Shown here in pieces: positions 3,756-61,280 of a DNA stretch of 64,000 nucleotides. Position 1 is the first letter of the stretch. Every line of letters begins with the position of its first letter. The stretch is from positions 36,591-100,590 of the forward strand of contig ASPJ01000001.1 in NCBI GenBank assembly GCA_000405805.1, given 5' to 3'. The DNA comes from Fidelibacterota bacterium SCGC AAA003-L08 (GTDB lineage: Bacteria > Fidelibacterota > Marinisomatia > SCGC-AAA003-L08 > D37C17). The notes beneath the pieces were generated by a model, which was not told where the DNA came from, did not search any database, and was given only the letters and a program-made list of their open reading frames with translations. The translations under genes and the position numbers were made by a program.

Positions 3756-6460
3756 ATGAAGCAGGCATATTTCTTTGGCAAAGGACAAGCTGACGGAAAA
3801 TCTTCTGACAGTAAACTGTTAGGTGGTAAAGGTGCTAATTTAGCAGAAATGACGAAGATAGGACTACCTGTTCCCCCTGGATTTACTATTACCACAGAAT
3901 GCTGTATTGAATATTTGAAAAAAAATCAATTTTCTGATATATTAGAAGATGATGTTCATAATATGATACGTAAAATAGAATCAATTATGGGGAACCAATT
4001 TGGAAATATTAAAACCCCACTACTACTTTCAGTGCGATCAGGGGCGAGACAATCAATGCCAGGCATGATGGAGACTGTTTTAAATGTTGGGTTAACTGAA
4101 AAAACAATTCCCGGATTAATTAAAATATTTAAAGATAAAAGATTTGTTTATGATGCATATCGTAGATTAATCATGATGTATTCTGATGTTGTTATGGAGA
4201 AGGCAGAAGGAATAGTCATCCCTAATGGGCAGTTATCTATTCGTGAAGAACTTGAAGTTATTATGGAAGATATTAAAACTAAAAACAATATAACTTATGA
4301 TTCTGAGCTTTCGGCTAATCAACTTAAAGAAATGTCTTTACTTTTTAAAAAGAAAATCAAATTAAAATTAGGAAAAAGATTCCCGGATAATCCTAAAAAA
4401 CAATTATGGGGAGCCATTGAAGCAGTATTTAAATCTTGGAATGGAAAAAGAGCTATTCATTATAGGAAAATTGAAAAAATTCCAAATCATTGGGGCACCG
4501 CTGTTAATGTCCAGGCAATGGTATTTGGAAACTTAGGCAATCAATCAGGTACTGGAGTTGCTTTTACGCGTAATCCTTCAACTGGATCGAATCAATTCTA
4601 TGGCGAATGGTTAATTAATGCACAGGGAGAGGATGTAGTTTCGGGTATCAGAACCCCAAATCCAATTAATCATTATAGTCGCAATAAAGAATCGAAAGGT
4701 CTGCCTAATTTAGAGATTAGTTTTCCAAATATATATTCTCAATTAATTAAGATAAAAGATATATTAGAAGATCATTTTAAAGATATGCAAGATATTGAGT
4801 TTACATTTCAGAATAATATTCTATGGATGCTACAAACACGAAGAGGCAAGCGTAATGGGCGGGCTGCATTAAATATTGCTATGGATATGTTGAAAAAGAA
4901 ATTAATATCAGAAGCAGAGGCAATTAATAGAGTAAGCACAAATAATTTAGAAGAAATCATGCATCCAATGATTAACCCTGAAAAAGAAAAAAATCATAAA
5001 ATATTAGCCTCTGGATTACCGGCGGGGCCAGGTGGAGCTTGTGGCCAAATTGTCTTAGATGCAGACGCTGCTGAAATTTTAAACAAAAAAGGTCATTCAG
5101 TGATATTGATTCGTAATGAAACATCCCCTGAAGATATACATGGCATGCATGCATCCCAAGGAATATTAACTGCCAAGGGTGGGATGACATCTCATGCAGC
5201 ACTTGTTGCACGTGGATGGGGAAAATGTTGTATTGTTGGCTGTTCAAGTATGATTATTGATTTAAATAATAAATTAGTTACTATTGGTGGAGAAGAATTG
5301 AAAGAAGGTGATTGGATTTCTTTAAATGGATCAACGGGTAATATTTATAAAGATCAAATGGATTTAATTAATCCTGATTTAGCAAATGATAAAATTTTTA
5401 AACAGTTTTTGAATTTGTGCGATAAACATAGGACAATTAAAATTAGAACCAATGTAGATACTCCATTAGATGCTAAACAGGCATTAAAGTTTAAATGTGA
5501 AGGAGTAGGCCTTTGCAGAACAGAACATATGTTCTTTGAACCAGACAGAATTACTGCTATGAGAGAAATGATTTTAGCTGAGAACTCTAAAGATAGGAAG
5601 AAAGCTGTTATGGAGTTATTACCCTATCAAAAACAGGATTTTTATGATTTATTAAAAGTAATGTCAGGTCTACCCGTAACAATACGTTTATTGGACCCTC
5701 CTTTACATGAGTTTTTACCTCAAACTGAAGAACAAATATTACATTTAGCTGATGAGATGGGAATTACATCAAAAACTATTTATGATCGCATTGACTCATT
5801 GCATGAACTTAATCCAATGTTAGGCCATCGAGGGTGCAGATTGGGGATAGTGTATCCAGAAATAACTATTATGCAAGCTCAAGCAATTTTTGAAGCATGT
5901 GCAGAATTAATGAACGATGGTTTTTATCCAATTCCAGAGATAATGGTTCCCCTTGTAGGATCAGTAAATGAATTTTCAGACCAAAAATCTCTTATAGTAA
6001 GAAAAGCAAAACAAGTAGAAAAAAAATGGGTATTAAAATTAATTATTTAATTGGGACAATGATAGAATTACCAAGAGCATGTTTAGTTGCTGATCAAATT
6101 GCAGAATCCGCAGATTTCTTCTCATTTGGGACGAATGATTTGACACAGACAACCTTTGGATTTTCAAGAGATGATATAGGTAGTTTCTTGCCAGATTATT
6201 TAGAGCAAAATATTTTAGCAGAAGATCCATTTCAAACTATTGATATACAAGGGGTAGGCTCTTTATTGCAGATAGCAATTCATAAAGGTCGATTAGTTAA
6301 TCCAGAAATTAAAATTGGAATATGTGGAGAGCATGGTGGAGATTCTCAATCGGTAGTATTCTTTGACCAAATTAATTTAGATTATGTAAGTTGTTCTCCT
6401 TATAGAATCCCTATTTCAAAACTTGCTGCGGCACAATCAGCATTGTTAGCCAACCATTAA
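3756..6460 (+). CDS. ppdK: pyruvate, phosphate dikinase, split into two ORFs (3756-6050 and 6026-6460) by a single-base frameshift in an A8 run
   Basis: The N-terminus [43 protein letters not shown] matches PPDK. The phospho-His region is [21 protein letters not shown]. The C-terminal PEP-utilizer region (GTMIELPRA...[20 protein letters not shown]) is in the second frame. Adding one A to the run at 6019-6026 gives the continuous reading ...[25 protein letters not shown]. Confidence 0.9.
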
Positions 6461-6541: not shown

Positions 6542-8251
6542 ATGATTATGAAAAGGGTATTATTATTTTTAATGGTTTTATGTTCTAGTTTATTTTCTTC
6601 TACAGATTTTACTGAGGAAGAAAAAAGAGAATTAGGGAATCAAGCAATGCATCAGATGATGCAAAAAATTTGGACTGAAGCAATGGAAGCAAAATCAGCA
6701 TATAATAATGGCGTTTTTAATACACGTGAAGAATATCTTGAGAATGTATGTTCAACAGCTCCAGTAGCTCCTCCAGGTGTTTTTCACATTCATGCAGATG
6801 TTTCAAGTGAATTAGCAGCTGGAGATCCATCAGCATCAGTTTATATATCATGGGATGGCCAAGATAGTTGGTCTAATTATGTTGCCAGTCCTTTGGATCC
6901 TGAACTTGTGGGCCCTGGATATGAAAATACATGGGGACTAGAAACACCTAGCATAGGGACTTCTGCTGATTGGTATTTAGCAGGGACAGTTAATTCCGAA
7001 GCCCTTGGGTATGATTATGGCACTATTTTATTGAGTGGTTCCCCGCATAATGCAGATCAAATAGGTGTTCCATTGCCCCCAAATTTGTATGGATTATTAG
7101 CTGAAGATGAAAGTGGAGATGCATCGTCTGCTCAAGATATATTAAATATTAAAGGAAGTTACTATGATGATGGAGGTACTTTGGAAGATGGGTCTGGGGA
7201 TGGTGCTGAAAGATTTTATATGTCTATGGAAATTAATGGTGGTTGTTGTGATGAAGGAGGACTTTTTGGTCCTTGGTATCTTTATGGTGTAGGTATTGTA
7301 AACCCAGATTCAGAAACTCCAGTTGCATATGCTATTGGTTATGGAGATGGTGGTTTTGGTCAATTATTACCTGGGTTATTAAAAATTACAGGGGATCTTT
7401 CAACAGGAGAAATTGATGGATTTGATTATATAACAACAGATATTAACTATAATACTAACGGTGATTTTATGCAAGCTACGACATTAATGTCGTATATTAC
7501 AAATGATGCAGATTGGGGCGACTGGCCAAATTCTGTATATGGTTTTATTGCTTTAGGAGTTACTGTAGAAGCATCTTTAGATGGGTTAGATGTAGCTGCA
7601 GATATTAAAGATGAGACTTCACCGGGGTTATTTATTATGAATTCTATACATCAAGTTGGGAATAATGTTTTTGAGTTGGATGATTTATCATTTGATTCTG
7701 ATAATATGATATTATCTACAACATATAGTGATGAAGATGGTAATCTACCATGGTTTAAATCAATACAAATATGTGAAAATGTAGGAGGATTTTGTTATTT
7801 CCAGGAAGTTCCTATTCCAGATAGCCATACATATGAAGATGGCGTTATTTTTTCTGCTGATGTTACTAAATATATAACAGGATATTGTGCTTCTAATATT
7901 TTTGGAGAAGATGATTTGGATTTTGATAATGAAGAATCATGTACAGCTGCTGATGGAACGTGGTATGCTCCTATCCCAGATGGAGAATATGTAGCAAAGT
8001 TCGCATTTGCTGATGGAGAATATAATCCTAATGATGTTGAATATTTAGATATTACTATAGGTGAAGGTGGAACGGGATGTGCCTTGGTAGGAGACGTTAA
8101 TGAAGATGACACATTAAATATATTAGATGTAGTATTACTAGTGAACCTTATATTAAGCGGAAGTGATGCTGAGTGTGGTGATGCGAATGGAGATGATACA
8201 ACTAATATATTAGATGTAGTATTATTGGTAAATATTATCCTTGCTGGATAA
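6542..8251 (+). CDS. secreted acidic protein of unknown function with C-terminal dockerin-like module
   Basis: 569 aa with signal peptide MIMKRVLLFLMVLCSSLFSS. The body is D/G/E-rich with no motif I recognise. The C-terminus is GDVNEDDTLNILDVVLLVNLILSG...GDANGDDTTNILDVVLLVNIILAG. Confidence 0.6.
   Translation: MIMKRVLLFLMVLCSSLFSSTDFTEEEKRELGNQAMHQMMQKIWTEAMEAKSAYNNGVFNTREEYLENVCSTAPVAPPGVFHIHADVSSELAAGDPSASVYISWDGQDSWSNYVASPLDPELVGPGYENTWGLETPSIGTSADWYLAGTVNSEALGYDYGTILLSGSPHNADQIGVPLPPNLYGLLAEDESGDASSAQDILNIKGSYYDDGGTLEDGSGDGAERFYMSMEINGGCCDEGGLFGPWYLYGVGIVNPDSETPVAYAIGYGDGGFGQLLPGLLKITGDLSTGEIDGFDYITTDINYNTNGDFMQATTLMSYITNDADWGDWPNSVYGFIALGVTVEASLDGLDVAADIKDETSPGLFIMNSIHQVGNNVFELDDLSFDSDNMILSTTYSDEDGNLPWFKSIQICENVGGFCYFQEVPIPDSHTYEDGVIFSADVTKYITGYCASNIFGEDDLDFDNEESCTAADGTWYAPIPDGEYVAKFAFADGEYNPNDVEYLDITIGEGGTGCALVGDVNEDDTLNILDVVLLVNLILSGSDAECGDANGDDTTNILDVVLLVNIILAG
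8090..8248 (+). repeat. dockerin-like duplicated Ca-loop/helix module (copy 1 of 7 in window)
   Basis: The two segments are GDVNEDDTLNILDVVLLVNLIL and GDANGDDTTNILDVVLLVNIIL. The two halves are also similar at the DNA level (aatatattagatgtagtattaYtRgtRaaY). Confidence 0.75.
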
Positions 8252-8277: not shown

Positions 8278-8312
8278 AAAAAGCCTCTTTATTAATTAAA
8301 GAGGCTTTTTTT
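8278..8312. terminator. bidirectional rho-independent terminator between convergent genes
   Basis: Stem aaagcctcttt (8280-8290) pairs with aaagaggcttt (8298-8308) around a 7-nt loop. An A-run lies on the left and a T-run (8306-8312) on the right. Confidence 0.8.
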
Positions 8313-8336: not shown

Positions 8337-9266
8337 TTATTCTATGAATTCACCTTCACCCAGGATATCTTCTAAATTCCATTCACCAGAACTAATTTTA
8401 TCTTTAGCAATATTCAGAATTTGAGATTGAGCTCCTTCTACTTCTCTTTTTGCAACAGGTGTTTCAATAGGTGAAAACATAGCTTGTTTCTTTTGGGGAA
8501 GAAATTCTACAACCCTATTGACCGTTTCATTTTCATAGCCTTTTAATGCTTTTGCCATTAAATCGACATCTAAATCTGGATTAGACCAAAATTCTGAAGC
8601 AACTCCTTCTGGTAATGAATTAATCAAATCATCAAATGAAATATAATGTTTTTTAATTTCAGCATATAAAGCAGGATCATCTGATTGTACTTGTCCAAGG
8701 TATTGTTTAGCTTCACTTTCCGGGAGATTACTTAATATTGTAGCAATACTTTTTCCTCCTCCACGTGAAAATTCTTTAGGTCCAGGTATAAAAGCAGCTT
8801 TATTTTCTAGTTCTCGTGCCATATCTACAACTGCTTCCAAGGGGATATCATTTAAATTCCCTATTTGGATAATAACTTTATTTTTTAATCCAATATCTAG
8901 TTTATCAAGAAATTTCATTTGTCTTTCAGGAGTTATTTGTTCAATTGCTAAAGCAATAATCTTTACTTCCTCTTTAGATAATAGATAAAAAATCTGCTCA
9001 TCATTTAAGTCTCGGATAAATTTAAATACATCATCTGGCTCAGGTTTATTTCTATATTGATTAGACATCATTTTAAAGTAATATTCTTCCATAATCAATT
9101 TTTTTGTAGCTGTAGGAGTATGTTGTAGTTCTATAGATCGTACTCTTAATTTCAACATATCAGATTCACTTATTGAATTAAATAGTGGCATTGCTAATTG
9201 TTCGCCTAATATTTGCAATAATATTGCTGCTTTATCAAAACCAGAGTAATTTTCTAAATTAGTCAT
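8337..9266 (-). CDS. fliG: flagellar motor switch protein FliG homologue
   Basis: 309 aa. The match runs across N, M and C domains: GFDKAAILLQILGEQLAMPLF (N), the GGGKSIATILSNL linker/ARM region, DPALYAEIKKHYISFDDL (compare MFVFEDL), DLMAKALKG..ETVNRVVEFLPQKKQAMF, and REVEGAQSQILNIAKDKISSGEW (compare VEEAQQxIVxxxRxLxxxGEI). A TAATG stop/start overlap links it to the upstream FliF-like gene. Confidence 0.85.
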   Translation of the reverse strand: MTNLENYSGFDKAAILLQILGEQLAMPLFNSISESDMLKLRVRSIELQHTPTATKKLIMEEYYFKMMSNQYRNKPEPDDVFKFIRDLNDEQIFYLLSKEEVKIIALAIEQITPERQMKFLDKLDIGLKNKVIIQIGNLNDIPLEAVVDMARELENKAAFIPGPKEFSRGGGKSIATILSNLPESEAKQYLGQVQSDDPALYAEIKKHYISFDDLINSLPEGVASEFWSNPDLDVDLMAKALKGYENETVNRVVEFLPQKKQAMFSPIETPVAKREVEGAQSQILNIAKDKISSGEWNLEDILGEGEFIE

Positions 9267-10504
9267 TATTCTTCTCCTTCAGTTTCAGCATTGTCCGCAT
9301 CTTTAGGGCTTCCATCATCCATCCAATCTTTTATTATTTGAGTAGCACCTTCTTTTTGGCTTGCAGACATTGCAATTGAAGATTGACGAAGAGCTTTTAA
9401 CTCTGAAGAAAGCACACTTTCATCTACATTTGCGGCTGTTCCTCCTGGATAGGATGATTGAGATACACCTGCATTAGCTGAAGATGACTGTACTTCTGAA
9501 GTTGTATCAGTTTCATTTGTTTGAACAGTATCATTTGAATTATTATTAGGATCTTTTGGCTTTAAATAAACAACTGACTTTTTATTGATTAGTATCATTA
9601 GGAACGCAATTGCAGATAATGCAAGCAAAAATATTCCCCCACCAATAAGCCATCCAGATATTCCGCCACTACTACCTCCGCCTTCCAAGGCATTTCCACC
9701 TGTTTGACTATTAATTTGCGCATCTTTTTCAGCTATGACTTGTGCAGTTAAATCGTCAACTTTTTCTTGATTTTTTTGGAAGCTCTGTTCTCTGTCATCT
9801 TCTAAAAAAGCTAATCGAATTGAATCTTTAGTTGATAAATAAATTGCCCAAGTTTGTAATTCATTTTCTGAATCTTCAAGTTGAGCCTTTAAATCAGCAA
9901 GCTGTAAGTTTAATTCAACCATTTGATCTTTTCTAGCCTGATCTTTCATATCATTTAACTCTTTTCGGAGTTTTTCAATTTCTGAATCTTCATTATTTTT
10001 ACTATTAAAATTCATTGTTTCAATAGTTATGCAATCATCACATTGTGCTGTCTGTGGAATAATTCCTTTTATTAAAGATTCAATCATTTTTTCATTAGCA
10101 CCATTAGCTAGAGAGGGTTCAATCCAAACTTCAATATCAATTTCATTTATTATATAATCATCTGCACCCAACCTTCTATTAGAAGTGGATTGATTATTAT
10201 TAGAGATTCCTTTTGAGCCTGATAGTGGTACTCCAGGGAGGTATTCCATTCCTCTATTATTCACTTTAGGAGTATTTTTAGATTTATTATTAAGTAAATC
10301 TTTATATCTACCAATTTCAAGATTAACAATCACAACAAATCTATCTTTATTCTTATCAAGCGTTTTTTCAAGTTCAGAATAAATTTTCTCTTTTAATGAA
10401 TTCTCAAGATTTATCTTTTGAGTAAAAGATTCTAAATTCTGAGGGAATAAAATCCCAATTGTTAAAATTAAAACGATACTACTAATATATTTTTTCATAT
10501 TCAT
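9266..10504 (-). CDS. shortened FliF/SctJ-like ring protein (one RBM-like domain, coiled coil, TM helix, cytoplasmic tail with FliG-binding-like C-terminal helix)
   Basis: 412 aa. Layout: N-terminal signal/anchor (ISSIVLILTIGILF); beta-alpha-beta segments RFVVIVNLEIG and IDIEVWIEPSL..EKMIESLIKGIIP..CITIETMNF typical of ring-building motifs; a coiled coil (EIEKLRKELNDMKDQARKDQMVELNLQLADLKAQLEDSENELQ); a TM helix (GWLIGGGIFLLALSAIAFLMILI); and a tail ending QKEGATQIIKDWMDDG, which resembles the FliF C-terminal VIRQWM helix. Its position immediately upstream of fliG is canonical for fliF. Confidence 0.6.
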   Translation of the reverse strand: MNMKKYISSIVLILTIGILFPQNLESFTQKINLENSLKEKIYSELEKTLDKNKDRFVVIVNLEIGRYKDLLNNKSKNTPKVNNRGMEYLPGVPLSGSKGISNNNQSTSNRRLGADDYIINEIDIEVWIEPSLANGANEKMIESLIKGIIPQTAQCDDCITIETMNFNSKNNEDSEIEKLRKELNDMKDQARKDQMVELNLQLADLKAQLEDSENELQTWAIYLSTKDSIRLAFLEDDREQSFQKNQEKVDDLTAQVIAEKDAQINSQTGGNALEGGGSSGGISGWLIGGGIFLLALSAIAFLMILINKKSVVYLKPKDPNNNSNDTVQTNETDTTSEVQSSSANAGVSQSSYPGGTAANVDESVLSSELKALRQSSIAMSASQKEGATQIIKDWMDDGSPKDADNAETEGEE

Positions 10505-10535: not shown

Positions 10536-11225
10536 TTAATAATTTGGTCCTATAATAATCTTAATACGTCTATTTTTCCTCTTTAAATCTCTTGTTCCAT
10601 TCATTGAGTCGATTAGTGCTCGATCAACATCTCCTCCTCGCCTTTGATTCCATGTCACCCCCACTGGCCATGTATCAGCGTAACCCGAAGGACTTAATCT
10701 GGTGAAATTTACACCTTTATCAATTAAATATTTAACAACTTCTGAAGCTCGAGCTGTTGATAGTTCCCAGTTTGAAGGATATTTGTTTGCCATTTTACCT
10801 CGCATCAAATCATTATCAGTATGTCCTTCAATTAAAATTGGTCTAAGATCACCTTCTTCAGTTAATACATCTTGTATTGCTCTATCTAGAACCTCTTTTA
10901 ATTTTGGTTGTAATTCAACTTGAGAGCTTTCAAAACAGATATCTCCATCAATTTCTAATGCAATTCCTCGAGGGTCCTGTGAGACAGTTGCTGTTGAATC
11001 CATATTTAGTTCTTCAATCATTTTTTCAAATTCTTTTTTAATTTCGCCTAGATCTTTTGATTCACCTTTTTTATCACCTTCAGCAAACTCTGCTAACTTA
11101 ACTGGGTCAAGAGTTGATAGAGAAAAAAGTAACACAAAGAAAGCAAACAACAAAGTCATCATATCAGAATATGTTGCAAACCAACCAGGTAATCCTCCTC
11201 CGTCTTTTTTATTTTTCTTACCCAT
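10536..11225 (-). CDS. motB: flagellar-type stator protein MotB (OmpA-like peptidoglycan-binding domain)
   Basis: 229 aa. The N-terminal TM carries the conserved channel Asp (GWFATYSDMMTLLFAFFVLLFSLS). The OmpA-like C-domain reads ILIEGHTDN...NWELSTARASEVVKYL...SPSGYADTWP. It lies 3 nt downstream of motA. Confidence 0.85.
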   Translation of the reverse strand: MGKKNKKDGGGLPGWFATYSDMMTLLFAFFVLLFSLSTLDPVKLAEFAEGDKKGESKDLGEIKKEFEKMIEELNMDSTATVSQDPRGIALEIDGDICFESSQVELQPKLKEVLDRAIQDVLTEEGDLRPILIEGHTDNDLMRGKMANKYPSNWELSTARASEVVKYLIDKGVNFTRLSPSGYADTWPVGVTWNQRRGGDVDRALIDSMNGTRDLKRKNRRIKIIIGPNY

Positions 11226-11228
11226 TTT

Positions 11229-12041
11229 TTATTCTTCGTCTAAGATCCTATCTTTACTATCTAAGAAAGCATTCAATTTATCTCGCATTAATATTGGATG
11301 AGTTTTATCATATAATAATTTTACTCCCTCAAGTATTAAAGCACTTTCAACTTCTTTATTTTCACTAATTCCTTCAAGCTTTGCAGCAAATGGTAAGAAT
11401 ATGAAATTAGCAAAAACAGAACCATATAGTGTTGTTATTAATGCGATAGCCATAGATTTCCCTAATTGTGCAGCTGGATTTACACCAGGAGCAGTTTCAC
11501 CACCCATTCCTGCAAGCATGAGTACAAGACCAATCAGTGTACCAATCATTCCAAAGGCTGGAGTATATTCACCCATAGTTTTCATTACCTTAGCTTGTCG
11601 CTCTTCTCGTATAGCTCTATTTTCTTCCATATTTTCTAGAATATCTACGATAACATCTTTTTTATAACCTCCAGCAACATAGTCACAGCCTATTTGTGAA
11701 GTCTTTAACCTAAATGCCATTGATTCAGGAGGACTTTCTAAAGATTTTTGAAGTTCACCTTTTTTATGAGATTCAGCTAAAGAAATAAAATCTTTCACAA
11801 TATCTGCTGGCGAATATGGATTATCAGATATTAATCTTTTTAAATTTTTAAATATTGATAGAACTTCTGATAACTTAAAGGCAATGGCAGTAGCTGCCAA
11901 GGCTCCTCCTACTACAATAAGCAAGCTAATACCAGACCATAATTTCATAATGGATAGACCTGCATCTGCTGCTGCTGCATAAGATGCATAGCTCATTAAT
12001 CCCAAACCTAATACAAAACCTATAATTGTTGCTAAATTCAT
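11229..12041 (-). CDS. motA: flagellar-type stator protein MotA/PomA (MotA/TolQ/ExbB channel family, 4-TM type)
   Basis: 270 aa with two N-terminal TM helices, a ~100-aa cytoplasmic loop, TM3 (YTPAFGMIGTLIGLVLML) and TM4 (MAIALITTLYGSVFANFIFLPFAAKLE). The two conserved prolines are present. Confidence 0.85.
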   Translation of the reverse strand: MNLATIIGFVLGLGLMSYASYAAAADAGLSIMKLWSGISLLIVVGGALAATAIAFKLSEVLSIFKNLKRLISDNPYSPADIVKDFISLAESHKKGELQKSLESPPESMAFRLKTSQIGCDYVAGGYKKDVIVDILENMEENRAIREERQAKVMKTMGEYTPAFGMIGTLIGLVLMLAGMGGETAPGVNPAAQLGKSMAIALITTLYGSVFANFIFLPFAAKLEGISENKEVESALILEGVKLLYDKTHPILMRDKLNAFLDSKDRILDEE

Positions 12042-12051
12042 ACTTTCTCTC

Positions 12052-13383
12052 CTAATCCTTTAATTGTGCTGAATTTAAACGCTCCTCTTTATAAGCGAGA
12101 AGTAATTCTTGAATTTCTTCAAATTCAGGGTCTAATTTTAATGCAATATTCCAATTCATAGTAGCTCGTTGAAAATCACCTAGTTTATAATAAATTGATC
12201 CTCTTCGTGCATATGCAAGGGCAATATTAGGGTTCAAATCAATTGCTTTATCAATTTCAGCTAAAGCATCTCGATATTCCTCTTCATAAAAATAACGTAA
12301 ACATCGAGTCAAATGTCTTGCAACTCTATTTGTAATTGATTGATTAGCTTGTTCTTTTAAGTAAAAAACTCGAGTTGAATCCATGAACATAGCAACTTTA
12401 TGCTGAAGCAATAAATTATTATCAGATAAAATTACAATTTCATTATTTATTAAATTAATTGAATCTTGTAAAGTACTAATTTGTTTTAATAATTCCAATT
12501 CCCTATTAGTAATATCATCAGGGAATTCAGATATATCTAACAAACTTGGTTTTGGTGCATTTGGAATATTCATTGTTAATCCCATACTAACAGCAGGTGC
12601 ATCTGGTTGTAATTGTTGATAATCATCGCCAAGTTTAGTTTCACTAGCAAACCCCCCTAGATTATTAATATGAGTCATACCAATAGACATACTATAATCA
12701 TTCGTAAATGGAATGATAGTTCCCATATTAATTCCATTCCCATCATATTCAACGATTAATTCCATCCCTCCATTCCGAGATAAATAGGGAGTATTTAAAT
12801 TAAAACCTAAAAATAAACCTGATCCACTAGATGAAATATTATCAGATGAATTAACATGTGGGTCATATTTTACTTTTCCAGTACCTGCGCCTACATTAAT
12901 TGACAGCGTGTAATTATCAAATGATTTTCTGCTTGTTAAAACACCAAAAAATGATATATCATCAATACGCATAACATCATTTCCATCCCTCCTATAGAGA
13001 ACGTCTTGAATTCCAGCAGATAAGGAAACATCTCCATGCTTAAATATTGATTTTTGAAAATGAAATCCTAGTTCTCCAACATTACTTGGGTCAATAATAT
13101 TACCAGCAGTTAGACCAAATGTAAATCCAGTCTTTGTTTGCATTCTGATAGAAGCAGAATTGCTACTTTTTCCGTAATTACTAGGATCAGCTGCAAAATT
13201 AATAATTTCAGAAGAGATACCTACAGAGAAAAAATAAGGGTTTTCATGATTAAATGCATAATTTGGTATACGCATCATATTCCCCGGTCGTGAAAATGCA
13301 ACTCTAGAATTAGCATTTACCATATTTAACATTATTGTTAAAATAAATAAAGATATAAATAGTTGTTTATAGTTATTAATCAT
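12052..13383 (-). CDS. secreted beta-rich (outer-membrane-barrel-like) protein with coiled coil and C-terminal TPR repeats, co-operonic with motAB
   Basis: 443 aa with signal-like N-terminus LFILTIMLNMVNA. About 270 aa is rich in G/S/N/aromatic alternating strands. A coiled coil (ELELLKQISTLQDSINLINNE) is followed by TPRs (ALAEIDKAIDLNPNIALAYARRGSIYYKLGDFQRATMNWNIALKLDPEF). There is a 10-nt gap to motA. Confidence 0.5.
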   Translation of the reverse strand: MINNYKQLFISLFILTIMLNMVNANSRVAFSRPGNMMRIPNYAFNHENPYFFSVGISSEIINFAADPSNYGKSSNSASIRMQTKTGFTFGLTAGNIIDPSNVGELGFHFQKSIFKHGDVSLSAGIQDVLYRRDGNDVMRIDDISFFGVLTSRKSFDNYTLSINVGAGTGKVKYDPHVNSSDNISSSGSGLFLGFNLNTPYLSRNGGMELIVEYDGNGINMGTIIPFTNDYSMSIGMTHINNLGGFASETKLGDDYQQLQPDAPAVSMGLTMNIPNAPKPSLLDISEFPDDITNRELELLKQISTLQDSINLINNEIVILSDNNLLLQHKVAMFMDSTRVFYLKEQANQSITNRVARHLTRCLRYFYEEEYRDALAEIDKAIDLNPNIALAYARRGSIYYKLGDFQRATMNWNIALKLDPEFEEIQELLLAYKEERLNSAQLKD

Positions 13384-13396
13384 TTTTTAAATATAA

Positions 13397-13945
13397 TTAT
13401 TTAAAACTTTTGTATTGTAGTTTCGCTAATTTATAATATTCACTATCTGGACAATTTGATATCAAATTATCTAAGTAAATATTTGTAGCGTGAATATTCC
13501 CTGTCTTTTTATTATATAGTGCGAGCAAAAAATATTTTTCATCAATAGGATAATTTTCTGATATAAACTCTAGACTATTAATAGCTTCTTTATATTTCCC
13601 TAATCTATATAATACATCTGAATAAATCATTCTATCTATATCAGTAAAAGATTTTTCTTCCCCGTAAATATTGTGAAAGTATTCTGCTAATTCAACATAT
13701 CTCTCACTAACATATAATATTTTAATTATATGATTTTGTGATAGATTGCTTTCCAGTAAATTAAATTCTGTTATATTAGTTGACTCTCTATATGCAGGCA
13801 TTATTTGAGTATCAGCAATCAATGGTTTTATAATATTTTCTTCATGCGTAGAGTTAGATGTAATACGAACACCTAAATCCCAAAGTATTACGTCATCTGC
13901 AAAAATAAATGTTAGAATTATTAATGAAGCTAATAGTCTATTCAT
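13397..13945 (-). CDS. small secreted TPR-like protein
   Basis: 182 aa with signal peptide MNRLLASLIILTFIFA and helical repeat segments such as YSDVLYRLGKYKEAINSLEFISENYP and YYKLAKLQY. It overlaps the upstream gene by 8 nt. Confidence 0.5.
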   Translation of the reverse strand: MNRLLASLIILTFIFADDVILWDLGVRITSNSTHEENIIKPLIADTQIMPAYRESTNITEFNLLESNLSQNHIIKILYVSERYVELAEYFHNIYGEEKSFTDIDRMIYSDVLYRLGKYKEAINSLEFISENYPIDEKYFLLALYNKKTGNIHATNIYLDNLISNCPDSEYYKLAKLQYKSFK

Positions 13946-14894
13946 ATTGTTCCCAGTCTATGGTATATGAGTAACCAATGAATGAGCCCATTGATTTTGG
14001 GACCATCAATTCAAATTCAGCAACGGCTCCTGGTAATATACTCGAATCGGAAGTTACCCCAGTTTTAAATGTATAATAAGATCCTCTTGCAAAAGCTGTT
14101 AAGGTCTCAACGTCACCATGCCAATTTTTGCGGAAGGTTACATTGATTTTTGCAAAATCACCTCTCTGCGTCCCAATATTTTTTATTTCTCCACTTAAGA
14201 TTGTATTCCCAGTTTTATCTTTTGTTTCTTGTATATCACCTATTAAAACTAACTGTGCTGTTATATTTTCTTTTCGCCGTTCTATAATATTAATACCTGA
14301 TTCATCATCATTTTGTACTTCTACTATTTCTATTTGATCTGGCGATAGGCTCCGTGTTTCTTCTTTAGCATCTTCGTCAATAATATTTTCAACTACACGA
14401 ACAATATCACTTCTATCAATTATTAATTTACCAATTAGGGTTTCTACTTTTACAACATCACGATCCTGATATACTATTTTCCCAAATACAGTTGTCCCAT
14501 TAGATAAAATTATTTCTTTATTATAGATTGTAAAAGGGTTTCCCCATACTTGGGATTTAGCACTTAATTCACGTAAATCAGCTTTATAATGATTAAGTTC
14601 AGCTTTGAGTTTTTTAATTTCAAGGTTTAATTCATTAATATGCAAATCACCATCTTGATAAGTTGAATTATCTACATCTAAATCATTTTCGGGGATATAT
14701 TCATCAAAAGCTTTCTGTTCATCTTCATTTTCAGTATCAGATGCATTATTGAATTCTTCTAACGTTTCTGATGAATTTTGTTTGTTACCCGAATCATCTA
14801 AATCAGGTTCTGAACTTCCCCCTCCACAAGCATTCAATAAAATAATGAGAGAAAAAATAGTCATTATATTTAAAACGATTTTATGTGTTTTCAT
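13938..14894 (-). CDS. lipoprotein with acidic linker, coiled coil and beta-rich C-terminal domain (first gene of the motAB-fliG operon)
   Basis: 318 aa with lipobox LLNAC-GGGSS, an acidic low-complexity stretch, a coiled coil (LNLEIKKLKAELNHYKADLRELS) and a beta-rich C-terminal half. No family recognised. Confidence 0.5.
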   Translation of the reverse strand: MKTHKIVLNIMTIFSLIILLNACGGGSSEPDLDDSGNKQNSSETLEEFNNASDTENEDEQKAFDEYIPENDLDVDNSTYQDGDLHINELNLEIKKLKAELNHYKADLRELSAKSQVWGNPFTIYNKEIILSNGTTVFGKIVYQDRDVVKVETLIGKLIIDRSDIVRVVENIIDEDAKEETRSLSPDQIEIVEVQNDDESGINIIERRKENITAQLVLIGDIQETKDKTGNTILSGEIKNIGTQRGDFAKINVTFRKNWHGDVETLTAFARGSYYTFKTGVTSDSSILPGAVAEFELMVPKSMGSFIGYSYTIDWEQYE

Positions 14895-37748: not shown

Positions 37749-39320
37749 ATGAAAAAATTAATTCAAACAACAAAATATTTTATTACTACATGTATGATAT
37801 TCTCATTTGCTCAAGCGCAGTGGTCTTCTGACCCTGCATCTCCACAGTTATTAGGCAGTGGTGTTCAGGCACAAGTTAAGGCTACCTCTGATGGAGGTGT
37901 ATATGTTGCATGGCTTACTGACATGGGTGATTATCATGTGTATCTGCAACGATTTGACGCAATGGGAGTAGCACAATTCGATGATGGCGGCATGTTAGTG
38001 AGTGATAACTCGAATGCATCATGGATTGCTGTTTTTCATATGAATCTTGATGTAGATAGTGATGATAATGCAATTATTACCGTTTTAGATGAGAGGTCAG
38101 GACCATGGAATGTATATGCTTATAAGATTTCATCAAGCGGTTCTATGCTATGGGGAGATGATGGAATATCAGTTTCGAATTCCAATCAGACGAATTATTC
38201 TCCTCGATTAGCAATCTTACCAGATAATAGTGCTGTGGTTGCATGGTCTCCTAATTCAACTACTGTTGAAATTCAAAGGATTTCTGCTGGTGGTGAATTG
38301 ATGTGGGGCGGTGGCATTCTTATTCAAGATAATAATGAATCTCTGATGTCCCCTCAACCAATTGTTGATTCAAATGGTAATGTACTGGTTCAATGGATTG
38401 GACAATCAGGACCATTCTGGGCTGCTGATAGTAAATTATATTTGCAGAAGTATGATCTTGATGGAAATGCTCAGTGGAACAACCCAGCGTTGGCAGGTGG
38501 ACCAGTTGTATTCCCTATGGGAAACTGGTCACAAGGATTAATTAGAGATGATAATGGTGGCAGTTTTTCTTCATGGACAAAAATGTCAGGGAATGTACAA
38601 TCTTCTTTTACTCAACATATCAATACTGATGGAGAGTTATCTTGGACTAATGGAGTTGAATTTTCTAGTAATTCCAGTAGTTTTCGGATGTCACCTCGTT
38701 TAGCTGTTTCTGAAGATTCTCAGGAATTGATGGCGGTATGGAATCAATCAAATAGTAGTCAATCTCAGGGTGGTGTATATGCGCAGCGCTTAGATGAAAA
38801 TGGTGATCGTCTTTGGAGTTCTTCTGGCATGGCAGTAGTTCCTTTGAACAGTAATTATGATTATTTAGATCTCTCCGTTGCAGGATTTGGAGATGATATA
38901 ATTACGGCTTATATTCAACAAAGTGTAAACATGTCTGGTGATATTTATGCTTCTTATCTTAATTCAGATGGTGAGCATGCTTGGTCAGAGCCGGTAACTT
39001 TGACAACCTCTGGAAATGCAAAATCAGACATGTCTACTGGTAAGGGACAAGAATGTCTTTTTATTGCTTGGACTGAAAATGGCAATGTTTATGCACACTC
39101 TCTAAGAGTTGATGGCACACTAGGAGCAGCAGATTCTTTTATTCCGGGGGATGTTAATGGCGATGAACTAATAAATGTAATAGATATAGTTGCACTGGTT
39201 TCTTTTATTCTTCAAACAGATATTCCTTCAGACTCCGAATATCTTGCCGGAGATTTTAATGGAGATGGTAATTTAAATGTTTTGGATATCGTTGATATTA
39301 TTGCGTTAATCTTAAGCTAA
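37749..39320 (+). CDS. secreted repeat (beta-propeller-like) protein of unknown function with C-terminal dockerin-like module
   Basis: 523 aa with signal peptide ...CMIFSFAQA. A periodic ~55-60 aa unit ends in G-x-x-x-W (GSMLWGDDGISV, GELMWGGGILI, GNAQWNNPALAG, GELSWTNGVEF, GDRLWSSSGMAV, GEHAWSEPVTL). Confidence 0.6.
   Translation: MKKLIQTTKYFITTCMIFSFAQAQWSSDPASPQLLGSGVQAQVKATSDGGVYVAWLTDMGDYHVYLQRFDAMGVAQFDDGGMLVSDNSNASWIAVFHMNLDVDSDDNAIITVLDERSGPWNVYAYKISSSGSMLWGDDGISVSNSNQTNYSPRLAILPDNSAVVAWSPNSTTVEIQRISAGGELMWGGGILIQDNNESLMSPQPIVDSNGNVLVQWIGQSGPFWAADSKLYLQKYDLDGNAQWNNPALAGGPVVFPMGNWSQGLIRDDNGGSFSSWTKMSGNVQSSFTQHINTDGELSWTNGVEFSSNSSSFRMSPRLAVSEDSQELMAVWNQSNSSQSQGGVYAQRLDENGDRLWSSSGMAVVPLNSNYDYLDLSVAGFGDDIITAYIQQSVNMSGDIYASYLNSDGEHAWSEPVTLTTSGNAKSDMSTGKGQECLFIAWTENGNVYAHSLRVDGTLGAADSFIPGDVNGDELINVIDIVALVSFILQTDIPSDSEYLAGDFNGDGNLNVLDIVDIIALILS
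39147..39317 (+). repeat. dockerin-like module (3 of 7)
   Basis: The two segments are GDVNGDELINVIDIVALVSFIL and GDFNGDGNLNVLDIVDIIALIL. Confidence 0.75.
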
Positions 39321-54680: not shown

Positions 54681-56066
54681 TTGATGATTAGAATTATGAA
54701 GAATTTTTTCACATATTATTTATTTTTAATTATTGGATTAAGTAGTTATCTACTTGGGCAGATGCTTCCTTATGAAGAACCATCGTTGATTCAAAATAGA
54801 TATAGCGGACACATTCCAACACGTTCAATTTCAGCAGATAATATTAATCAAGCATTGGATATTGATATTATTAACAATGGAAGTTTAGATAGGGTTAATA
54901 ATAATACTCATATATTTTATACATTGAATTTATCTGAGGATAATATTTATGATTTATCATTTGATTATCAAAATATACCAATGGGTAGCAAACTATTTAT
55001 CATTGAAGAAAATAAATTTTTAGGACCATTATTATTATCTGGTACAGATAATTTAGTTCAAAGAGTATCTGGTAGAGATTTAACATTAGAAATTATTTTT
55101 CCATCAAATCATATTGGTAATCCGAAATTTAAATTAGCAAAAATATCATTCAAAGACAAAGAAACAGCAAACATTAAAAATGATTTTTTAATTAATAAAA
55201 GTAATCGTGAACCAGTGATACTAGTTACCGGTTTTTGGCCTCCCACCAATGAAATGATAAGACATTTCAGCCAGAATATATTTTTAAATGGAAACTGGGA
55301 AGGTGAAAACTGGCAAGATAGAGGATATAATATTATATCCTATTTTCCAGAATTCACAAATCCAGATTGTGATAATTGTGGACAAGGATATGGGGATTTA
55401 GAAGTTGATTATCAAGATACCTCCGTAGATTTCTGGGATATTGTAGAGGAACACTCCCCAGTTGCAATTATTACATTTAGCAGGGGATACATAAATTACA
55501 GCTGGGAGCTTGAATTTAATTTTTATAATAGGACCAATTGGTATCCAGATTATTCAACCCCTACTCTTCCAACTCCAAATCCTCCAGATGATAGTGTGGA
55601 ATCATATTACCTAAGGAACTCAACACTCCCAATGGATAATATTATGAATGAAGTTAATGCAGCAGACCTTGGATTGGATTCTTATATAGATGCTACTGGA
55701 GACCCAGGTCATTTTGTTTCAGAGTTTATGGGCTATCATGGTGTATGGTATCATGATATTAATATTGAGTCCTGTTATGTTGCAGGGCATATTCATGTGG
55801 GTGGATTAATTGATTGGGATACAGCTAGAGAGGCAACCGAGATTTCAATTTTAAAGACTATTGATTATTTAGATCAGTTTTCCTATACTGAAGGTGATGT
55901 AAATGCAGATGGTACTATTGATATATTAGATTTAGTTATTGTTGTCAATGTTATTTTAGGATCAGAAGAACTTAGTTTAATTGAAAGCTATGCTGCAGAT
56001 ATGAATCTGGATGGTGTAATTAATATCCAAGACATCATTTTGATTATAAACTTAATATTAAATTAA
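54681..56066 (+). CDS. secreted protein with possible pyroglutamyl-peptidase (C15)-like fold and C-terminal dockerin-like module
   Basis: 461 aa with a signal/anchor sequence. By-eye similarity to Pcp: PVILVTGFWPP (compare LLTGFDPFGG), SWELEFN (Glu position), GDPGHFVSEFMGY (compare AGTFVCNHLFY, with Ser replacing Cys), and AGHIHVG (compare GFIHIP). This is a weak call from memory alignment only. Confidence 0.4.
   Translation: MMIRIMKNFFTYYLFLIIGLSSYLLGQMLPYEEPSLIQNRYSGHIPTRSISADNINQALDIDIINNGSLDRVNNNTHIFYTLNLSEDNIYDLSFDYQNIPMGSKLFIIEENKFLGPLLLSGTDNLVQRVSGRDLTLEIIFPSNHIGNPKFKLAKISFKDKETANIKNDFLINKSNREPVILVTGFWPPTNEMIRHFSQNIFLNGNWEGENWQDRGYNIISYFPEFTNPDCDNCGQGYGDLEVDYQDTSVDFWDIVEEHSPVAIITFSRGYINYSWELEFNFYNRTNWYPDYSTPTLPTPNPPDDSVESYYLRNSTLPMDNIMNEVNAADLGLDSYIDATGDPGHFVSEFMGYHGVWYHDINIESCYVAGHIHVGGLIDWDTAREATEISILKTIDYLDQFSYTEGDVNADGTIDILDLVIVVNVILGSEELSLIESYAADMNLDGVINIQDIILIINLILN
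55893..56063 (+). repeat. dockerin-like module (7 of 7)
   Basis: The two segments are GDVNADGTIDILDLVIVVNVIL and ADMNLDGVINIQDIILIINLIL. Confidence 0.75.
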
Positions 56067-59594: not shown

Positions 59595-59598
59595 ATCA

Positions 59599-61245: not shown

Positions 61246-61280
61246 AGTTCCTTCATTATTTATTAATTAGACACATGTAT

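What the first reader, a model, noticed from the sequence alone, without database searches (positions are those of the whole stretch)
9266..10504. Mini-FliF: one ring-building motif, a long coiled coil, one TM helix and a FliG-docking-like tail in 412 aa
Canonical FliF is about 530-570 aa with three periplasmic ring-building motifs between two TM helices. This ORF has a signal/anchor sequence and a single recognisable beta-alpha-beta RBM-like unit (RFVVIVNLEIG ... IDIEVWIEPSL-x8-EKMIESLIKGIIP-x9-CITIETMNF). That unit is interrupted by an N/S-rich insert. It is followed by a ~70-aa heptad-rich coiled coil, a G/S-rich hinge and one TM helix. The S/T/N-rich cytoplasmic tail ends QKEGATQIIKDWMDDG, which resembles the amphipathic C-terminal FliF helix (VIRQWM in Salmonella, as recalled) that inserts into the FliG N-domain. 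The stop overlaps the fliG start, as expected for a stoichiometric pair. A coiled coil replacing RBM3/the beta-collar is not an architecture I know from flagellar or injectisome rings.
Basis: partly seen in the sequence, partly recalled or inferred. Interest (0 to 1): 0.7.

Follow-up and report, generated by a model that had tools for sequence, protein, structure and literature searches.

The report
Non-flagellar mini-FliF rotor protein, Marinimicrobia
This gene encodes a stripped-down relative of the flagellar base-ring protein FliF that, with FliG-, MotA- and MotB-like partners and an outer-membrane barrel protein, forms a seven-gene module conserved across the ocean phylum Marinimicrobia with no other flagellar genes nearby, so it looks like a flagellar-type motor core reused for an unknown, non-swimming job.

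Summary
The ORF (9266-10504, minus strand, 412 aa) is real, and its described anatomy is confirmed. It has a signal-like N-terminus and one alpha-beta-beta-alpha-beta unit split by an N/S-rich insert. A predicted 95-residue helix, a G/S hinge, one TM helix and a conserved W-containing C-terminal helix follow. Its stop overlaps the start of a FliG-like gene (TAATG).

The retained motif is RBM3 itself, with the insert at the beta-collar position. RBM1, RBM2 and TM1 are the parts that are missing. The coiled coil is an expansion of the short RBM3-to-TM2 linker: 13 residues in Salmonella, 117 here.

Evidence:
- Relatives hit Pfam YscJ_FliF_C (best 1.5e-11).
- A subgroup profile hits solved FliF sequences colinearly at RBM3 and at the C-terminus.
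- The top Foldseek matches are FliF S-ring structures.

The gene sits in a seven-gene operon: lipoprotein, TPR-like protein, outer-membrane barrel with long helix and TPR, MotA, MotB, mini-FliF, FliG. The operon is syntenic in about 80 Marinimicrobia genomes. No other flagellar gene lies in the 64 kb window.

Best reading: an envelope-spanning, ion-driven, non-flagellar rotor-stator machine whose output is unknown. I found no description of it in the literature searched. Rotation, ring formation and the FliG contact are inferred, not shown.

The parts
10442..10504 (-). aa 1-21: signal-peptide-like N-terminus (K-rich n-region, 14-residue hydrophobic core, then Q22)
   Evidence: Read directly from the sequence. 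Q occupies the aligned position in 49 of 61 family members, after a small residue. Cleavage is inferred and was not tested.
10307..10441 (-). aa 22-66: first half of the RBM3-like unit (helix alpha1, strand beta1)
   Evidence: AlphaFold2 secondary structure. hhalign aligns aa 32-81 to E. coli FliF 237-285. The second most conserved 15-residue window is aa 27-41.
10157..10306 (-). aa 67-116: N/S-rich insert at the beta-collar position, containing the conserved MEYLPGVPLSG motif (G91 invariant)
   Evidence: pLDDT is below 50. Insert length ranges from 40 to 176 residues in the family. G91 is invariant in all 61 sequences. hhalign puts the related GLPIPGF motif on E. coli FliF YPGGVPGALSNQ.
10007..10156 (-). 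aa 117-166: second half of the RBM3-like unit (beta2, alpha2, beta3), with the C155-x-x-C158 pair
   Evidence: AlphaFold2 secondary structure. High-GC relatives have ...RGDxLSImTASF here, aligned to FliF ...RGDSLNVVNSPF. C155 and C158 are invariant in the closer subgroup.
9707..9991 (-). aa 172-266: predicted continuous helix (coiled-coil stalk)
   Evidence: H172-266 with pLDDT of about 80-90. The segment from beta3 to the TM helix is 117 residues here, with a family median of 143 and a maximum of 218, against 13 residues in Salmonella FliF (PMC8092281).
9656..9706 (-). aa 267-283: G/S-rich hinge
   Evidence: Read from the sequence. pLDDT is below 50.
9584..9655 (-). aa 284-307: transmembrane helix, the equivalent of FliF TM2
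   Evidence: Hydrophobic helix H284-307, conserved in position across the family.
9554..9568 (-). aa 313-317: invariant juxtamembrane motif YLKPK (cytoplasmic side)
   Evidence: Invariant in the 35-sequence alignment. It is replaced by a PPPWMYPP-type motif in high-GC relatives. Its function is unknown.
9311..9430 (-). aa 359-398: conserved C-terminal helices with invariant W394, the putative FliG-N-domain docking element
   Evidence: This is the most conserved segment, and W394 is invariant in 61 sequences. The best PDB hit of the 44-residue profile is the extreme C-terminus of Vibrio FliF, residues 559-579, E=0.014. The match is colinear.
8337..9266 (-). FliG-like protein, 309 aa, with N, M and C domains
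   Evidence: Pfam FliG_N 1.3e-8, FliG_M 2.9e-9, FliG_C 3.3e-14. Solved FliG 1lkv at 6e-14. The equivalents of E. coli K264 and R281 are conserved as K, and D288/D289 are deleted.
10536..11225 (-). MotB-like stator subunit, 229 aa (plug, TM helix with Asp21, OmpA-like peptidoglycan-binding domain)
   Evidence: Pfam MotB_plug 6.1e-16 and OmpA 1.1e-14. The best NCBIfam hits are MotD/MotS/MotB models, all below their cutoffs. The equivalent of E. coli D32 is conserved in 76 of 77 sequences.
11229..12041 (-). MotA/PomA-like stator subunit, 270 aa
   Evidence: Pfam MotA_ExbB 1.6e-20. NCBIfam MotP 4e-41 and PomA 5.5e-41, both below their cutoffs. The equivalents of P173 and P222 are invariant. The equivalent of E98 is E in 74 of 75 sequences but Q in this window.
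12052..13383 (-). 443-aa outer-membrane beta-barrel, followed by a long helix and a TPR domain
   Evidence: AlphaFold2 model, pLDDT 70.9: 13 beta strands across aa 52-273 (the model's element list), helix 293-366, TPR 370-432. The top Foldseek matches are OmpG, FapF, KdgM, Tsx and PorV barrels. Pfam finds TPR at 363-421.
13397..13945 (-). 182-aa exported TPR-like protein
   Evidence: N-terminal hydrophobic signal and weak TPR_6 and TPR_14 hits. Syntenic but divergent in the relatives.
13938..14894 (-). 318-aa lipoprotein, first gene of the operon
   Evidence: Lipobox-like LLNAC at aa 19-23. Highly conserved across the phylum, with E values of 1e-73 to 1e-82 in 58 or more loci. No informative family hit.
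8278..8310 (.). Bidirectional hairpin terminator between the FliG-like gene and the convergent dockerin-domain gene
   Evidence: A stem of 14 pairs followed by T runs on both strands.

Best explanation
The ORF encodes a reduced, re-engineered derivative of the flagellar MS-ring protein FliF.

Anatomy:
- The N-terminus looks like a cleavable signal peptide.
- The mature protein starts with one RBM3-type ring-building domain. A shortened loop sits where FliF has its beta-collar.
- A helical stalk of about 95 residues (about 14 nm) follows, then a flexible hinge and a single TM helix equivalent to FliF TM2.
- In the cytoplasm there is a disordered linker and then the conserved amphipathic C-terminal helices that in FliF co-fold with the FliG N-domain.

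Proposed mechanism:
1. Many copies assemble through RBM3 into a periplasmic ring. Their stalks hold this ring well above the inner membrane.
2. Their C-termini recruit a ring of the FliG-like protein.
3. MotA/MotB-type ion-driven stator units, anchored to peptidoglycan, push on the FliG C-domain and turn the assembly, or at least apply force to it.
4. The distal RBM3 ring passes that motion to an outer-membrane complex. This complex would be made of the 443-aa barrel/long-helix/TPR protein, the 182-aa TPR-like protein and the 318-aa lipoprotein encoded upstream.

There is no export gate, rod, hook or filament. The machine is therefore a non-flagellar, envelope-spanning motor, and its output at the outer membrane is unknown.

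Shown here: homology of the periplasmic domain and the C-terminus to FliF; the identity of the partners; the operon and its conservation across the phylum.

Inferred: signal-peptide cleavage, ring formation, FliG docking, rotation, contact with the outer-membrane proteins, and the output.
For: FliF origin:
- 14 of 61 family members hit Pfam PF08345 YscJ_FliF_C. The best is 1.5e-11 at 45 bits, against a 23.8-bit cutoff, and the match lies at their N-terminal periplasmic domain.
- Those members are linked to the window protein by the family profile; P0157 scores 2.6e-21 over profile positions 7-425.
- The profile of the high-GC subgroup hits solved FliF sequences: 12dr_A at 3.3e-4 and Vibrio 8z5s_AA at 4.5e-3. 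The Vibrio hit has two colinear stretches, RBM3 (270-455) and the C-terminus (552-578).
- hhalign aligns positions 35-215 of that subgroup's profile to E. coli FliF 238-431, and window aa 32-81 to FliF 237-285.
- The top Foldseek matches of the model are FliF MS-ring/S-ring entries: 9a67, 7bk0, 8z5v, 8ftf and 6sd1.

C-terminus:
- It is the most conserved region and W394 is invariant.
- The best hit among 177,635 PDB sequences is the last helix of Vibrio FliF.
- E. coli FliF ends ...VVALVIRQWINNDHE, against ...GATQIIKDWMDDG here.

Partners:
- The FliG-like protein has N, M and C domains.
- The MotB-like protein has the plug, the conserved Asp and an OmpA domain. The MotA-like protein keeps both conserved Pro residues.
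- The 443-aa protein is modelled as an outer-membrane barrel with a 74-residue helix and a TPR domain.

Operon and conservation:
- The gene order is the same in about 80 Marinimicrobia genomes and in divergent subgroups.
- dN/dS is below 0.1 for all six genes tested.

Non-flagellar context:
- No other flagellar family was found in 64 kb.
- The only cultured member of the phylum is non-motile (PMC11652737).

Plausibility from the literature:
- RBM3 alone (Salmonella FliF 231-438) forms rings (PMC8786727).
- RBM1 and RBM2, the missing parts, form the inner M-ring around the export gate (PMC8092281).
Against: - The window protein itself reaches no Pfam, NCBIfam or PDB sequence threshold. The FliF link is transitive, through relatives.
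- The AlphaFold2 model is poor in the periplasmic domain (pLDDT about 50-65). The Foldseek matches have high probability but low TM-scores and large rmsd.
- The hit of the C-terminal profile is only borderline (E=0.014).
- The FliG torque helix has lost the D288/D289 pair. The equivalent of MotA R90 is not aligned, and the equivalent of MotA E98 is Q in this window. The stator-rotor interface may therefore work differently or not at all.
- No complex or ring prediction could be run.
- Absence of flagellar genes is shown only for this window and for about 10 kb either side in related loci, not for whole genomes.
- One paper reports 'flagellar assembly' genes in Marinimicrobia MAGs.
- It is unclear how a wide ring on long stalks would rotate beneath or through the peptidoglycan.
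Confidence: 0.6

Rival explanations
1. It is the MS-ring protein of a genuine but highly divergent or reduced flagellum. The other flagellar genes would lie elsewhere in the genome.
For: - The MotA, MotB and FliG relatives are of the flagellar type, including the MotB plug.
- A metagenomic study lists 'flagellar assembly' genes in Marinimicrobia MAGs (bioRxiv 10.1101/2020.06.03.132969).
- Genome-wide gene content could not be checked here.
Against: - RBM1 and RBM2 are absent. These build the inner M-ring around the export gate.
- The RBM3 ring would sit about 14 nm or more from the membrane, which is incompatible with the known S-ring/rod geometry.
- The operon partners are an outer-membrane barrel/TPR protein and a lipoprotein, not flagellar proteins.
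- No flagellar gene lies in 64 kb.
- In about 80 related genome loci, searched only with ten proteins of this window, the 10 kb flanks showed no further MotA/MotB/FliF/FliG-type gene apart from one extra MotA/MotB pair in L074. Other flagellar families were not looked for there.
- The cultured representative is non-motile.
- The 'flagellar assembly' calls in MAGs could simply be this fliG/motA/motB cluster.
Confidence: 0.12
2. It is an envelope-spanning force transducer or tether that does not rotate continuously. In a Tol-Pal- or Ton-like manner, MotAB ion flow would drive conformational work, or sense load, on an outer-membrane complex through the FliG/mini-FliF adaptor. The protein might act as a low oligomer rather than a large ring.
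For: - The outer-membrane barrel, TPR and lipoprotein partners resemble the logic of Tol-Pal and Agl-Glt.
- The FliG charge pair D288/D289 is deleted, and the equivalent of MotA E98 is Q in this window.
- A long coiled coil suggests dimers or trimers as readily as a 30-mer palisade.
Against: - RBM3 is a ring-forming module that oligomerises on its own in FliF.
- A full three-domain FliG and the FliF-type docking helix are retained under strong constraint. This is most simply explained by a FliG ring engaged by rotating MotA pentamers.
Confidence: 0.2
3. It is an anti-phage defence module of the Zorya type, which also uses MotAB-like proteins and a long coiled coil.
For: The MotB-like protein hits PADLOC ZorB models (1.1e-20) and the MotA-like protein hits ZorA weakly (9e-4).
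Against: - Those hits reflect general MotAB homology. The other five proteins have no PADLOC hit.
- The NCBIfam hits to flagellar MotP/PomA are far stronger.
- The coiled coil here is periplasmic and lies on the FliF-like protein, not on a cytoplasmic tail of the MotA-like protein.
- The operon sits in fixed housekeeping synteny (panD/panC, PPDK, sdh) in every genome examined. It is not in a variable island.
Confidence: 0.03
4. It is a decaying relic of an ancestral flagellum with no present function.
For: The FliF is reduced, and all components are divergent and score below curated cutoffs.
Against: - Intact ORFs and identical gene order are kept across the whole phylum, including very divergent lineages.
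- dN/dS is below 0.1.
- Motifs are invariant (G91, W394, YLKPK), and new, conserved parts have been added, namely the coiled coil and the outer-membrane partners.
Confidence: 0.03

Closest known systems
FliF, the flagellar MS-ring protein (Pfam PF01514 + PF08345; Salmonella, E. coli and Vibrio structures 6sd1, 7bk0, 8z5s)
   Same: - RBM3-type domain with an insertion at the beta-collar position.
- A TM helix after it.
- A cytoplasmic C-terminal W-containing helix region next to a translationally coupled fliG-type gene.
- MotAB-type stator genes alongside.
   Different: - No TM1 (a signal-peptide-like N-terminus instead), no RBM1 and no RBM2.
- The collar insert is shortened to about 50 residues in this lineage.
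- A stalk of 117-218 residues replaces the 13-residue RBM3-to-TM2 linker.
- There is no export apparatus, rod, hook or C-ring (FliM/FliN) genes in the neighbourhood.
- The operon partners are outer-membrane and periplasmic proteins unrelated to flagella.
SpoIIIAG, the sporulation channel ring (an RBM3-like domain with a beta-triangle insertion)
   Same: A single RBM of the RBM3 class with a beta insertion, forming a large ring on its own. A membrane anchor plus one ring domain is the whole periplasmic or intermembrane architecture. The relation between RBM3 and SpoIIIAG is stated in PMC8786727 and PMC8092281.
   Different: - SpoIIIAG has an N-terminal anchor, no FliG-binding tail, no stator and no coiled-coil stalk.
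- It did not appear among the top 50 structure matches.
- It occurs in endospore formers.
GldLM/PorLM motor with the GldKN/PorKN ring (type IX secretion and gliding in Bacteroidota)
   Same: The same superphylum (FCB). A MotAB-family ion-driven motor in the inner membrane is coupled by a long periplasmic shaft to an outer-membrane-associated complex, with no filament (PMC8986121 and PMC12421860, listed). This is the closest analogue in how the machine may work.
   Different: The shaft there is GldM/PorM, which is bound inside the motor itself. There is no FliG or FliF homologue and no separate rotor ring. The proteins are not homologous beyond the MotAB-family subunits.
Agl-Glt gliding machinery of Myxococcus (from my own knowledge, not checked here)
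   Same: A TolQR/MotAB-family motor plus periplasmic TPR proteins, lipoproteins and outer-membrane beta-barrels, encoded together and spanning the envelope.
   Different: No FliG/FliF-type rotor. The motor belongs to the Tol/Exb branch. It occurs in a different phylum.

Membership tests
FliF (flagellar MS-ring protein) | RBM3/beta-collar region matching Pfam PF08345 (YscJ_FliF_C) | tested here: met
   The window protein itself has no hit. However, 14 of 61 family members do, the best at 45.4 bits against a cutoff of 23.8. They are tied to the window protein by the family profile. hhalign and PDB profile hits fall on FliF 238-455, and the top Foldseek matches are FliF S-ring entries.
FliF (flagellar MS-ring protein) | RBM1-RBM2 region matching Pfam PF01514 (YscJ_FliF) | tested here: not met
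   PF01514 is not among the families matched by any of the 61 members or by the window protein. Only about 30 residues lie between the signal-like N-terminus and the RBM3-like unit.
FliF (flagellar MS-ring protein) | Two TM helices flanking the periplasmic region | tested here: inconclusive
   The C-terminal TM helix is present (aa 284-307). The N-terminal hydrophobic stretch is only 14 residues and is followed by a small residue and then Q in 49 of 61 members, which looks like a signal peptide. No signal-peptide predictor was available.
FliF (flagellar MS-ring protein) | C-terminal cytoplasmic helices that bind the FliG N-domain | tested here: inconclusive
   This is the most conserved region and W394 is invariant. 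The best PDB hit is Vibrio FliF 559-579 at E=0.014. A FliG_N domain is present in the neighbouring protein. Binding was not predicted or measured.
FliF (flagellar MS-ring protein) | Curated whole-protein model (NCBIfam fliF equivalog) | tested here: not met
   No fliF model appears among the NCBIfam hits at E<=0.1.
FliF (flagellar MS-ring protein) | Encoded with and working in a flagellum (export gate, rod, hook, FliM/FliN) | tested here: not met
   None of these families is found in the 64 kb window. The about 80 related loci were searched only with ten proteins of this window, not for these families. Whole genomes could not be tested.
SctJ/PrgK (injectisome inner-ring lipoprotein) | N-terminal lipobox plus RBM1-RBM2 (PF01514) | tested here: not met
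   There is no Cys after the signal region and no PF01514 hit. PrgK appears only at rank 34-43 of the structure matches, with E above 0.1.
SpoIIIAG | Single RBM3-class domain with a beta-triangle insertion, N-terminal anchor, sporulation operon | tested here: not met
   No SpoIIIAG chain appears among the top 50 structure matches. The anchor is C-terminal, and the operon context is MotAB/FliG.
Flagellar-type MotAB stator (context genes) | MotB plug, TM Asp, OmpA-like peptidoglycan-binding domain; MotA Pro173/Pro222 and the charged loop R90/E98 | tested here: inconclusive
   The plug, Asp21, the OmpA domain and both Pro residues are conserved. The equivalent of E98 is E in 74 of 75 relatives but Q in this window, and R90 is not aligned to a basic residue, although RK lies one position away. 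All curated NCBIfam cutoffs are missed.
FliG (context gene) | N, M and C domains; charged torque helix K264, R281, D288, D289, R297 | tested here: inconclusive
   All three Pfam domains score above their cutoffs. K264 aligns to K and R281 to K in 80 of 80 sequences. D288/D289 are deleted and R297 is not conserved. TIGR00207 scores 80.9 bits against a cutoff of 226.7.

The most novel reading that the evidence does not exclude
The seven-gene operon encodes a previously undescribed kind of bacterial rotary machine. It would use a flagellar-type rotor-stator core (mini-FliF RBM3 ring, FliG ring, MotAB) without any type III export apparatus or axial filament. A periplasmic palisade of coiled coils would act as drive shaft to an outer-membrane barrel/TPR complex. 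The machine is universal in the abundant deep-ocean phylum Marinimicrobia (SAR406, Fidelibacterota). It would show that the FliF-FliG-MotAB torque module can exist and be selected on its own, which bears directly on how the flagellar motor was assembled in evolution.
Probability: 0.45. Interest if true: 0.9.

Novelty: new variant of a known kind. Interest (0 to 1): 0.78.

Why it matters
FliF and FliG are, as far as I know, treated as flagellum-specific. Here they appear, reduced and remodelled, in a self-contained operon with stator genes and outer-membrane proteins, in every lineage sampled of a phylum whose one cultured member does not swim.

If the module works as proposed, several things follow:
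- It gives a natural minimal system for asking whether an RBM3 ring plus FliG plus MotAB is enough to make a rotor.
- It is a new example, besides GldLM/PorLM, Agl-Glt, Ton and Tol, of inner-membrane ion-motive force being carried to the outer membrane.
- It is a concrete data point for models of flagellar origins, because it is a torque module without a secretion module.
- It is a practical warning for metagenomics. The fliG/motA/motB annotations from this operon can be misread as 'flagellar assembly' or motility in Marinimicrobia genomes.

Tried and rejected
- Direct sequence searches with the window protein found nothing useful: Pfam, NCBIfam, and PDB by phmmer and by the 35-sequence profile.
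- hhalign against a single E. coli FliF sequence gave only low-probability matches: 7.7% for the broad alignment and 52% for the high-GC subgroup. Both fell in the right place. I did not build a proper FliF profile.
The scan was therefore run with the high-GC subgroup only. It returned only Marinimicrobia-labelled, FCB-group or unnamed bacterial genomes.
- The last structure job went to the 443-aa partner rather than to a trimmed RBM domain. The periplasmic domain therefore has only a low-confidence model.
- The first dN/dS script timed out. The second ran, but dS was saturated.
- PDB sequence searches for the 443-aa and 318-aa proteins gave only TPR hits or nothing.
- Ten literature searches found no description of this operon.
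- I considered and rejected a Zorya-type defence system, an injectisome SctJ or a SpoIIIAG, and a pseudogene relic.

Full report
**Observation**

The ORF at 9266-10504 (minus strand) is a 412-aa protein with an ATG start and an AGGAG ribosome-binding site.

The AlphaFold2 secondary structure matches those features: helix 3-48, strand 56-66, disordered 67-116, strand 117-128, helix 135-153, strand 159-163, one continuous helix 172-266, TM helix 284-307, helices 362-398. The helix is about 95 residues rather than about 70. A helix before the first strand completes an alpha-beta-beta-alpha-beta topology. The stop codon shares one base with the ATG of the next gene, as TAATG.

**Neighbourhood**

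The gene is sixth of seven co-directional, tightly packed genes on the minus strand, from 14894 down to 8337:
- a 318-aa lipoprotein;
- a 182-aa exported TPR-like protein;
- a 443-aa protein;
- a MotA/PomA-like protein;
- a MotB-like protein with plug and OmpA domains;
- the ORF itself;
- a 309-aa protein with FliG_N, FliG_M and FliG_C domains.

A bidirectional hairpin terminator follows at 8278-8310.

I modelled the 443-aa protein (pLDDT 70.9). It has 13 strands across aa 52-273, a single 74-residue helix (293-366) and a TPR domain. Its best structural matches are outer-membrane barrels: OmpG, FapF, KdgM, Tsx and PorV.

Pfam scans of essentially all other ORFs of 110 aa or more in the 64 kb window found only housekeeping and secreted-enzyme families. 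None is flagellar.

**Family and distribution**

The word-indexed search found 79 homologues. All are unnamed or 'hypothetical protein', and the named ones come from Candidatus Marinimicrobia. An exhaustive profile search of 1.84 billion cluster representatives found 294.

Longer, high-GC relatives of 509-566 aa were used to scan one genome per species. That scan returned 144 relatives, and 80 loci were kept. Those that carry a taxon name are labelled Marinimicrobia, Neomarinimicrobiota, Fidelibacterota or 'FCB group'; the rest are unnamed bacterial MAGs.

The same seven-gene order recurs in these loci, wherever the contig is long enough. It also recurs in two very divergent subgroups, which share the wider synteny as well: panD/panC on one side and a dockerin protein, PPDK and sdh on the other.

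Pairwise dN/dS is about 0.06-0.07 for six genes. dS is saturated, so this shows constraint only qualitatively.

**What the protein is**

The window protein alone matches nothing curated. The family, however, connects to FliF in four independent ways.

1. 14 of 61 members hit Pfam PF08345, the model of the second half of FliF's periplasmic region. The hits cover the domain directly after the signal sequence and score up to 45 bits against a cutoff of 23.8.
2. The subgroup profile hits solved FliF sequences at 3.3e-4 and 4.5e-3. The Vibrio hit has two colinear stretches, 270-455 (RBM3) and 552-578 (the C-terminal helix).
3. hhalign aligns positions 35-215 of the high-GC subgroup's profile with E. 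coli FliF 238-431. This includes ...RGDxLSImTASF against ...RGDSLNVVNSPF, and the GLPIPGF motif against YPGGVPGALSNQ. For the broad alignment, window aa 32-81 align with FliF 237-285.
4. The best Foldseek matches of the low-confidence model are FliF MS-ring and S-ring/RBM3 entries.

No member shows the RBM1-RBM2 family PF01514.

The single ring-building motif is therefore RBM3. The N/S-rich insert occupies the site of the beta-collar; it is 40-176 residues long in the family and 54 here.

In Salmonella FliF only 13 extended residues join the S-ring to TM2 (PMC8092281). Here that linker is 117 residues. The family median is 143 and the maximum 218, and most of the linker is one predicted helix. 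The coiled coil is an insertion in the linker. It does not replace RBM3.

The N-terminus has a short (14-residue) hydrophobic core followed by a small residue and then Q in 49 of 61 members. This looks like a signal peptidase I site with Gln at +1, a pattern I recall as typical of the Bacteroidota-related superphylum. That is my own knowledge and was not tested here.

**The C-terminus**

Residues 359-398 are the most conserved part of the protein. W394 and G91 are the only residues invariant in all 61 sequences.

A 44-residue profile of this region finds, as its best hit among 177,635 PDB sequences, the last helix of Vibrio FliF: ALVANEPELAAQVVKNWMNDN, E=0.014. E. coli FliF ends ...VVALVIRQWINNDHE.

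The neighbouring protein keeps a FliG_N domain. The known role of that domain is to bind this part of FliF, which is established knowledge about FliF-FliG. The interaction is therefore likely, but it was not computed.

**Stator and rotor residues**

By alignment with E. coli proteins and 75-80 relatives:
- MotB Asp32 is conserved, as D21.
- MotA Pro173 and Pro222 are conserved.
- The equivalent of MotA Glu98 is E in 74 of 75 sequences but Q in this window.
- FliG K264 and R281 are kept as Lys in all sequences.
- FliG D288/D289 are deleted and R297 is not kept.

The interface is recognisably flagellar in type but remodelled.

**Mechanism proposed**

RBM3 alone forms rings (PMC8786727). I therefore propose the following:
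- The protein forms a periplasmic RBM3 ring carried on a cage of helical stalks about 14 nm long.
- It is anchored by one TM helix per subunit.
- A FliG-like ring sits on its cytoplasmic tails.
- Peptidoglycan-anchored MotAB units drive the assembly.

The barrel protein's 74-residue helix (about 11 nm) and TPR domain would reach down from the outer membrane. Together with the stalk and the domains, this adds up to roughly the width of a periplasm, so the two halves could meet. This geometry is my inference.

The parts lost from FliF (TM1, RBM1, RBM2) are those that surround the export gate. That fits a machine without type III export. What the machine does at the outer membrane is unknown.

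**Rivals**

- A divergent true flagellum is disfavoured by the missing RBM1/2, the stalk geometry, the non-flagellar partners, the lack of flagellar neighbours and the non-motile cultured representative. It cannot be excluded without whole-genome content. One study does report 'flagellar assembly' genes in Marinimicrobia MAGs, which may be this very operon.
- A non-rotating force transducer or tether remains a serious alternative.
- A Zorya-type defence system and a decaying relic are unlikely.

**Novelty**

Ten full-text searches found no description of a FliF/FliG/MotAB module of this kind or of this operon in Marinimicrobia. A recent survey of MotAB diversity does not mention the phylum.

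I classify the protein as a new variant of FliF. It fails several defining FliF features, so it should not be annotated simply as FliF. I classify the operon as a candidate new non-flagellar motor.

Noticed in passing
window 3756-6460 (+): The pyruvate phosphate dikinase gene is split into two overlapping ORFs, 3756-6050 (764 aa) and 6026-6460 (144 aa). Relatives have one gene of about 890 aa at the same syntenic position (L083 14158-16839). This is a frameshift, which could be a sequencing error or a pseudogene.
   Followed up: partly
window 6542-8251, 37749-39320, 49331-51256, 54681-56066 (all +): Four secreted proteins end in a dockerin type I domain. The one convergent with the operon is syntenic in the low-GC relatives (L083-L085) but was not found next to the operon in the high-GC loci. 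What these dockerin-like tails bind in a planktonic Gram-negative is unclear.
   Followed up: partly
window 11229-12041 (-), MotA-like residue 98: This window's MotA-like protein has Gln at the position aligned with E. coli MotA Glu98, a rotor-contact residue. 74 of 75 relatives from other Marinimicrobia have Glu there.
   Followed up: no
window 9554-9568 (-), aa 313-317 of the ORF: An invariant YLKPK motif lies just after the TM helix on the cytoplasmic side in the low-GC subgroups. It is replaced by a proline-rich PPPWMYPP motif in the high-GC subgroups. Its function is unknown.
   Followed up: no
window 10031-10042 (-), aa 155-158 of the ORF: An invariant Cys-x-x-Cys pair lies in the loop before the last RBM strand, exactly where high-GC relatives and FliF have the RGD motif. 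It could be a periplasmic disulfide or a metal site.
   Followed up: no
L085 7023-8419 and 11499-12432: In one divergent lineage, on a 1.8 Mb contig, the barrel/TPR protein and the FliG-like protein are each called as two genes: 278 + 187 aa, and 184 aa (N and M domains) + 130 aa (C domain). This could be a real split or a set of assembly frameshifts.
   Followed up: no
L074 11203-12862: A second MotA/MotB-like pair lies about 6 kb downstream of the operon in one genome.
   Followed up: no
window 58155-62931 (-): A sulfate-activation and sulfotransferase cluster (ATP-sulfurylase/APS kinase fusion, sulfotransferase) lies next to a sodium:solute symporter. An arylsulfotransferase-like dockerin protein lies at 49331-51256. 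Together these suggest sulfated surface or secreted glycans.
   Followed up: no
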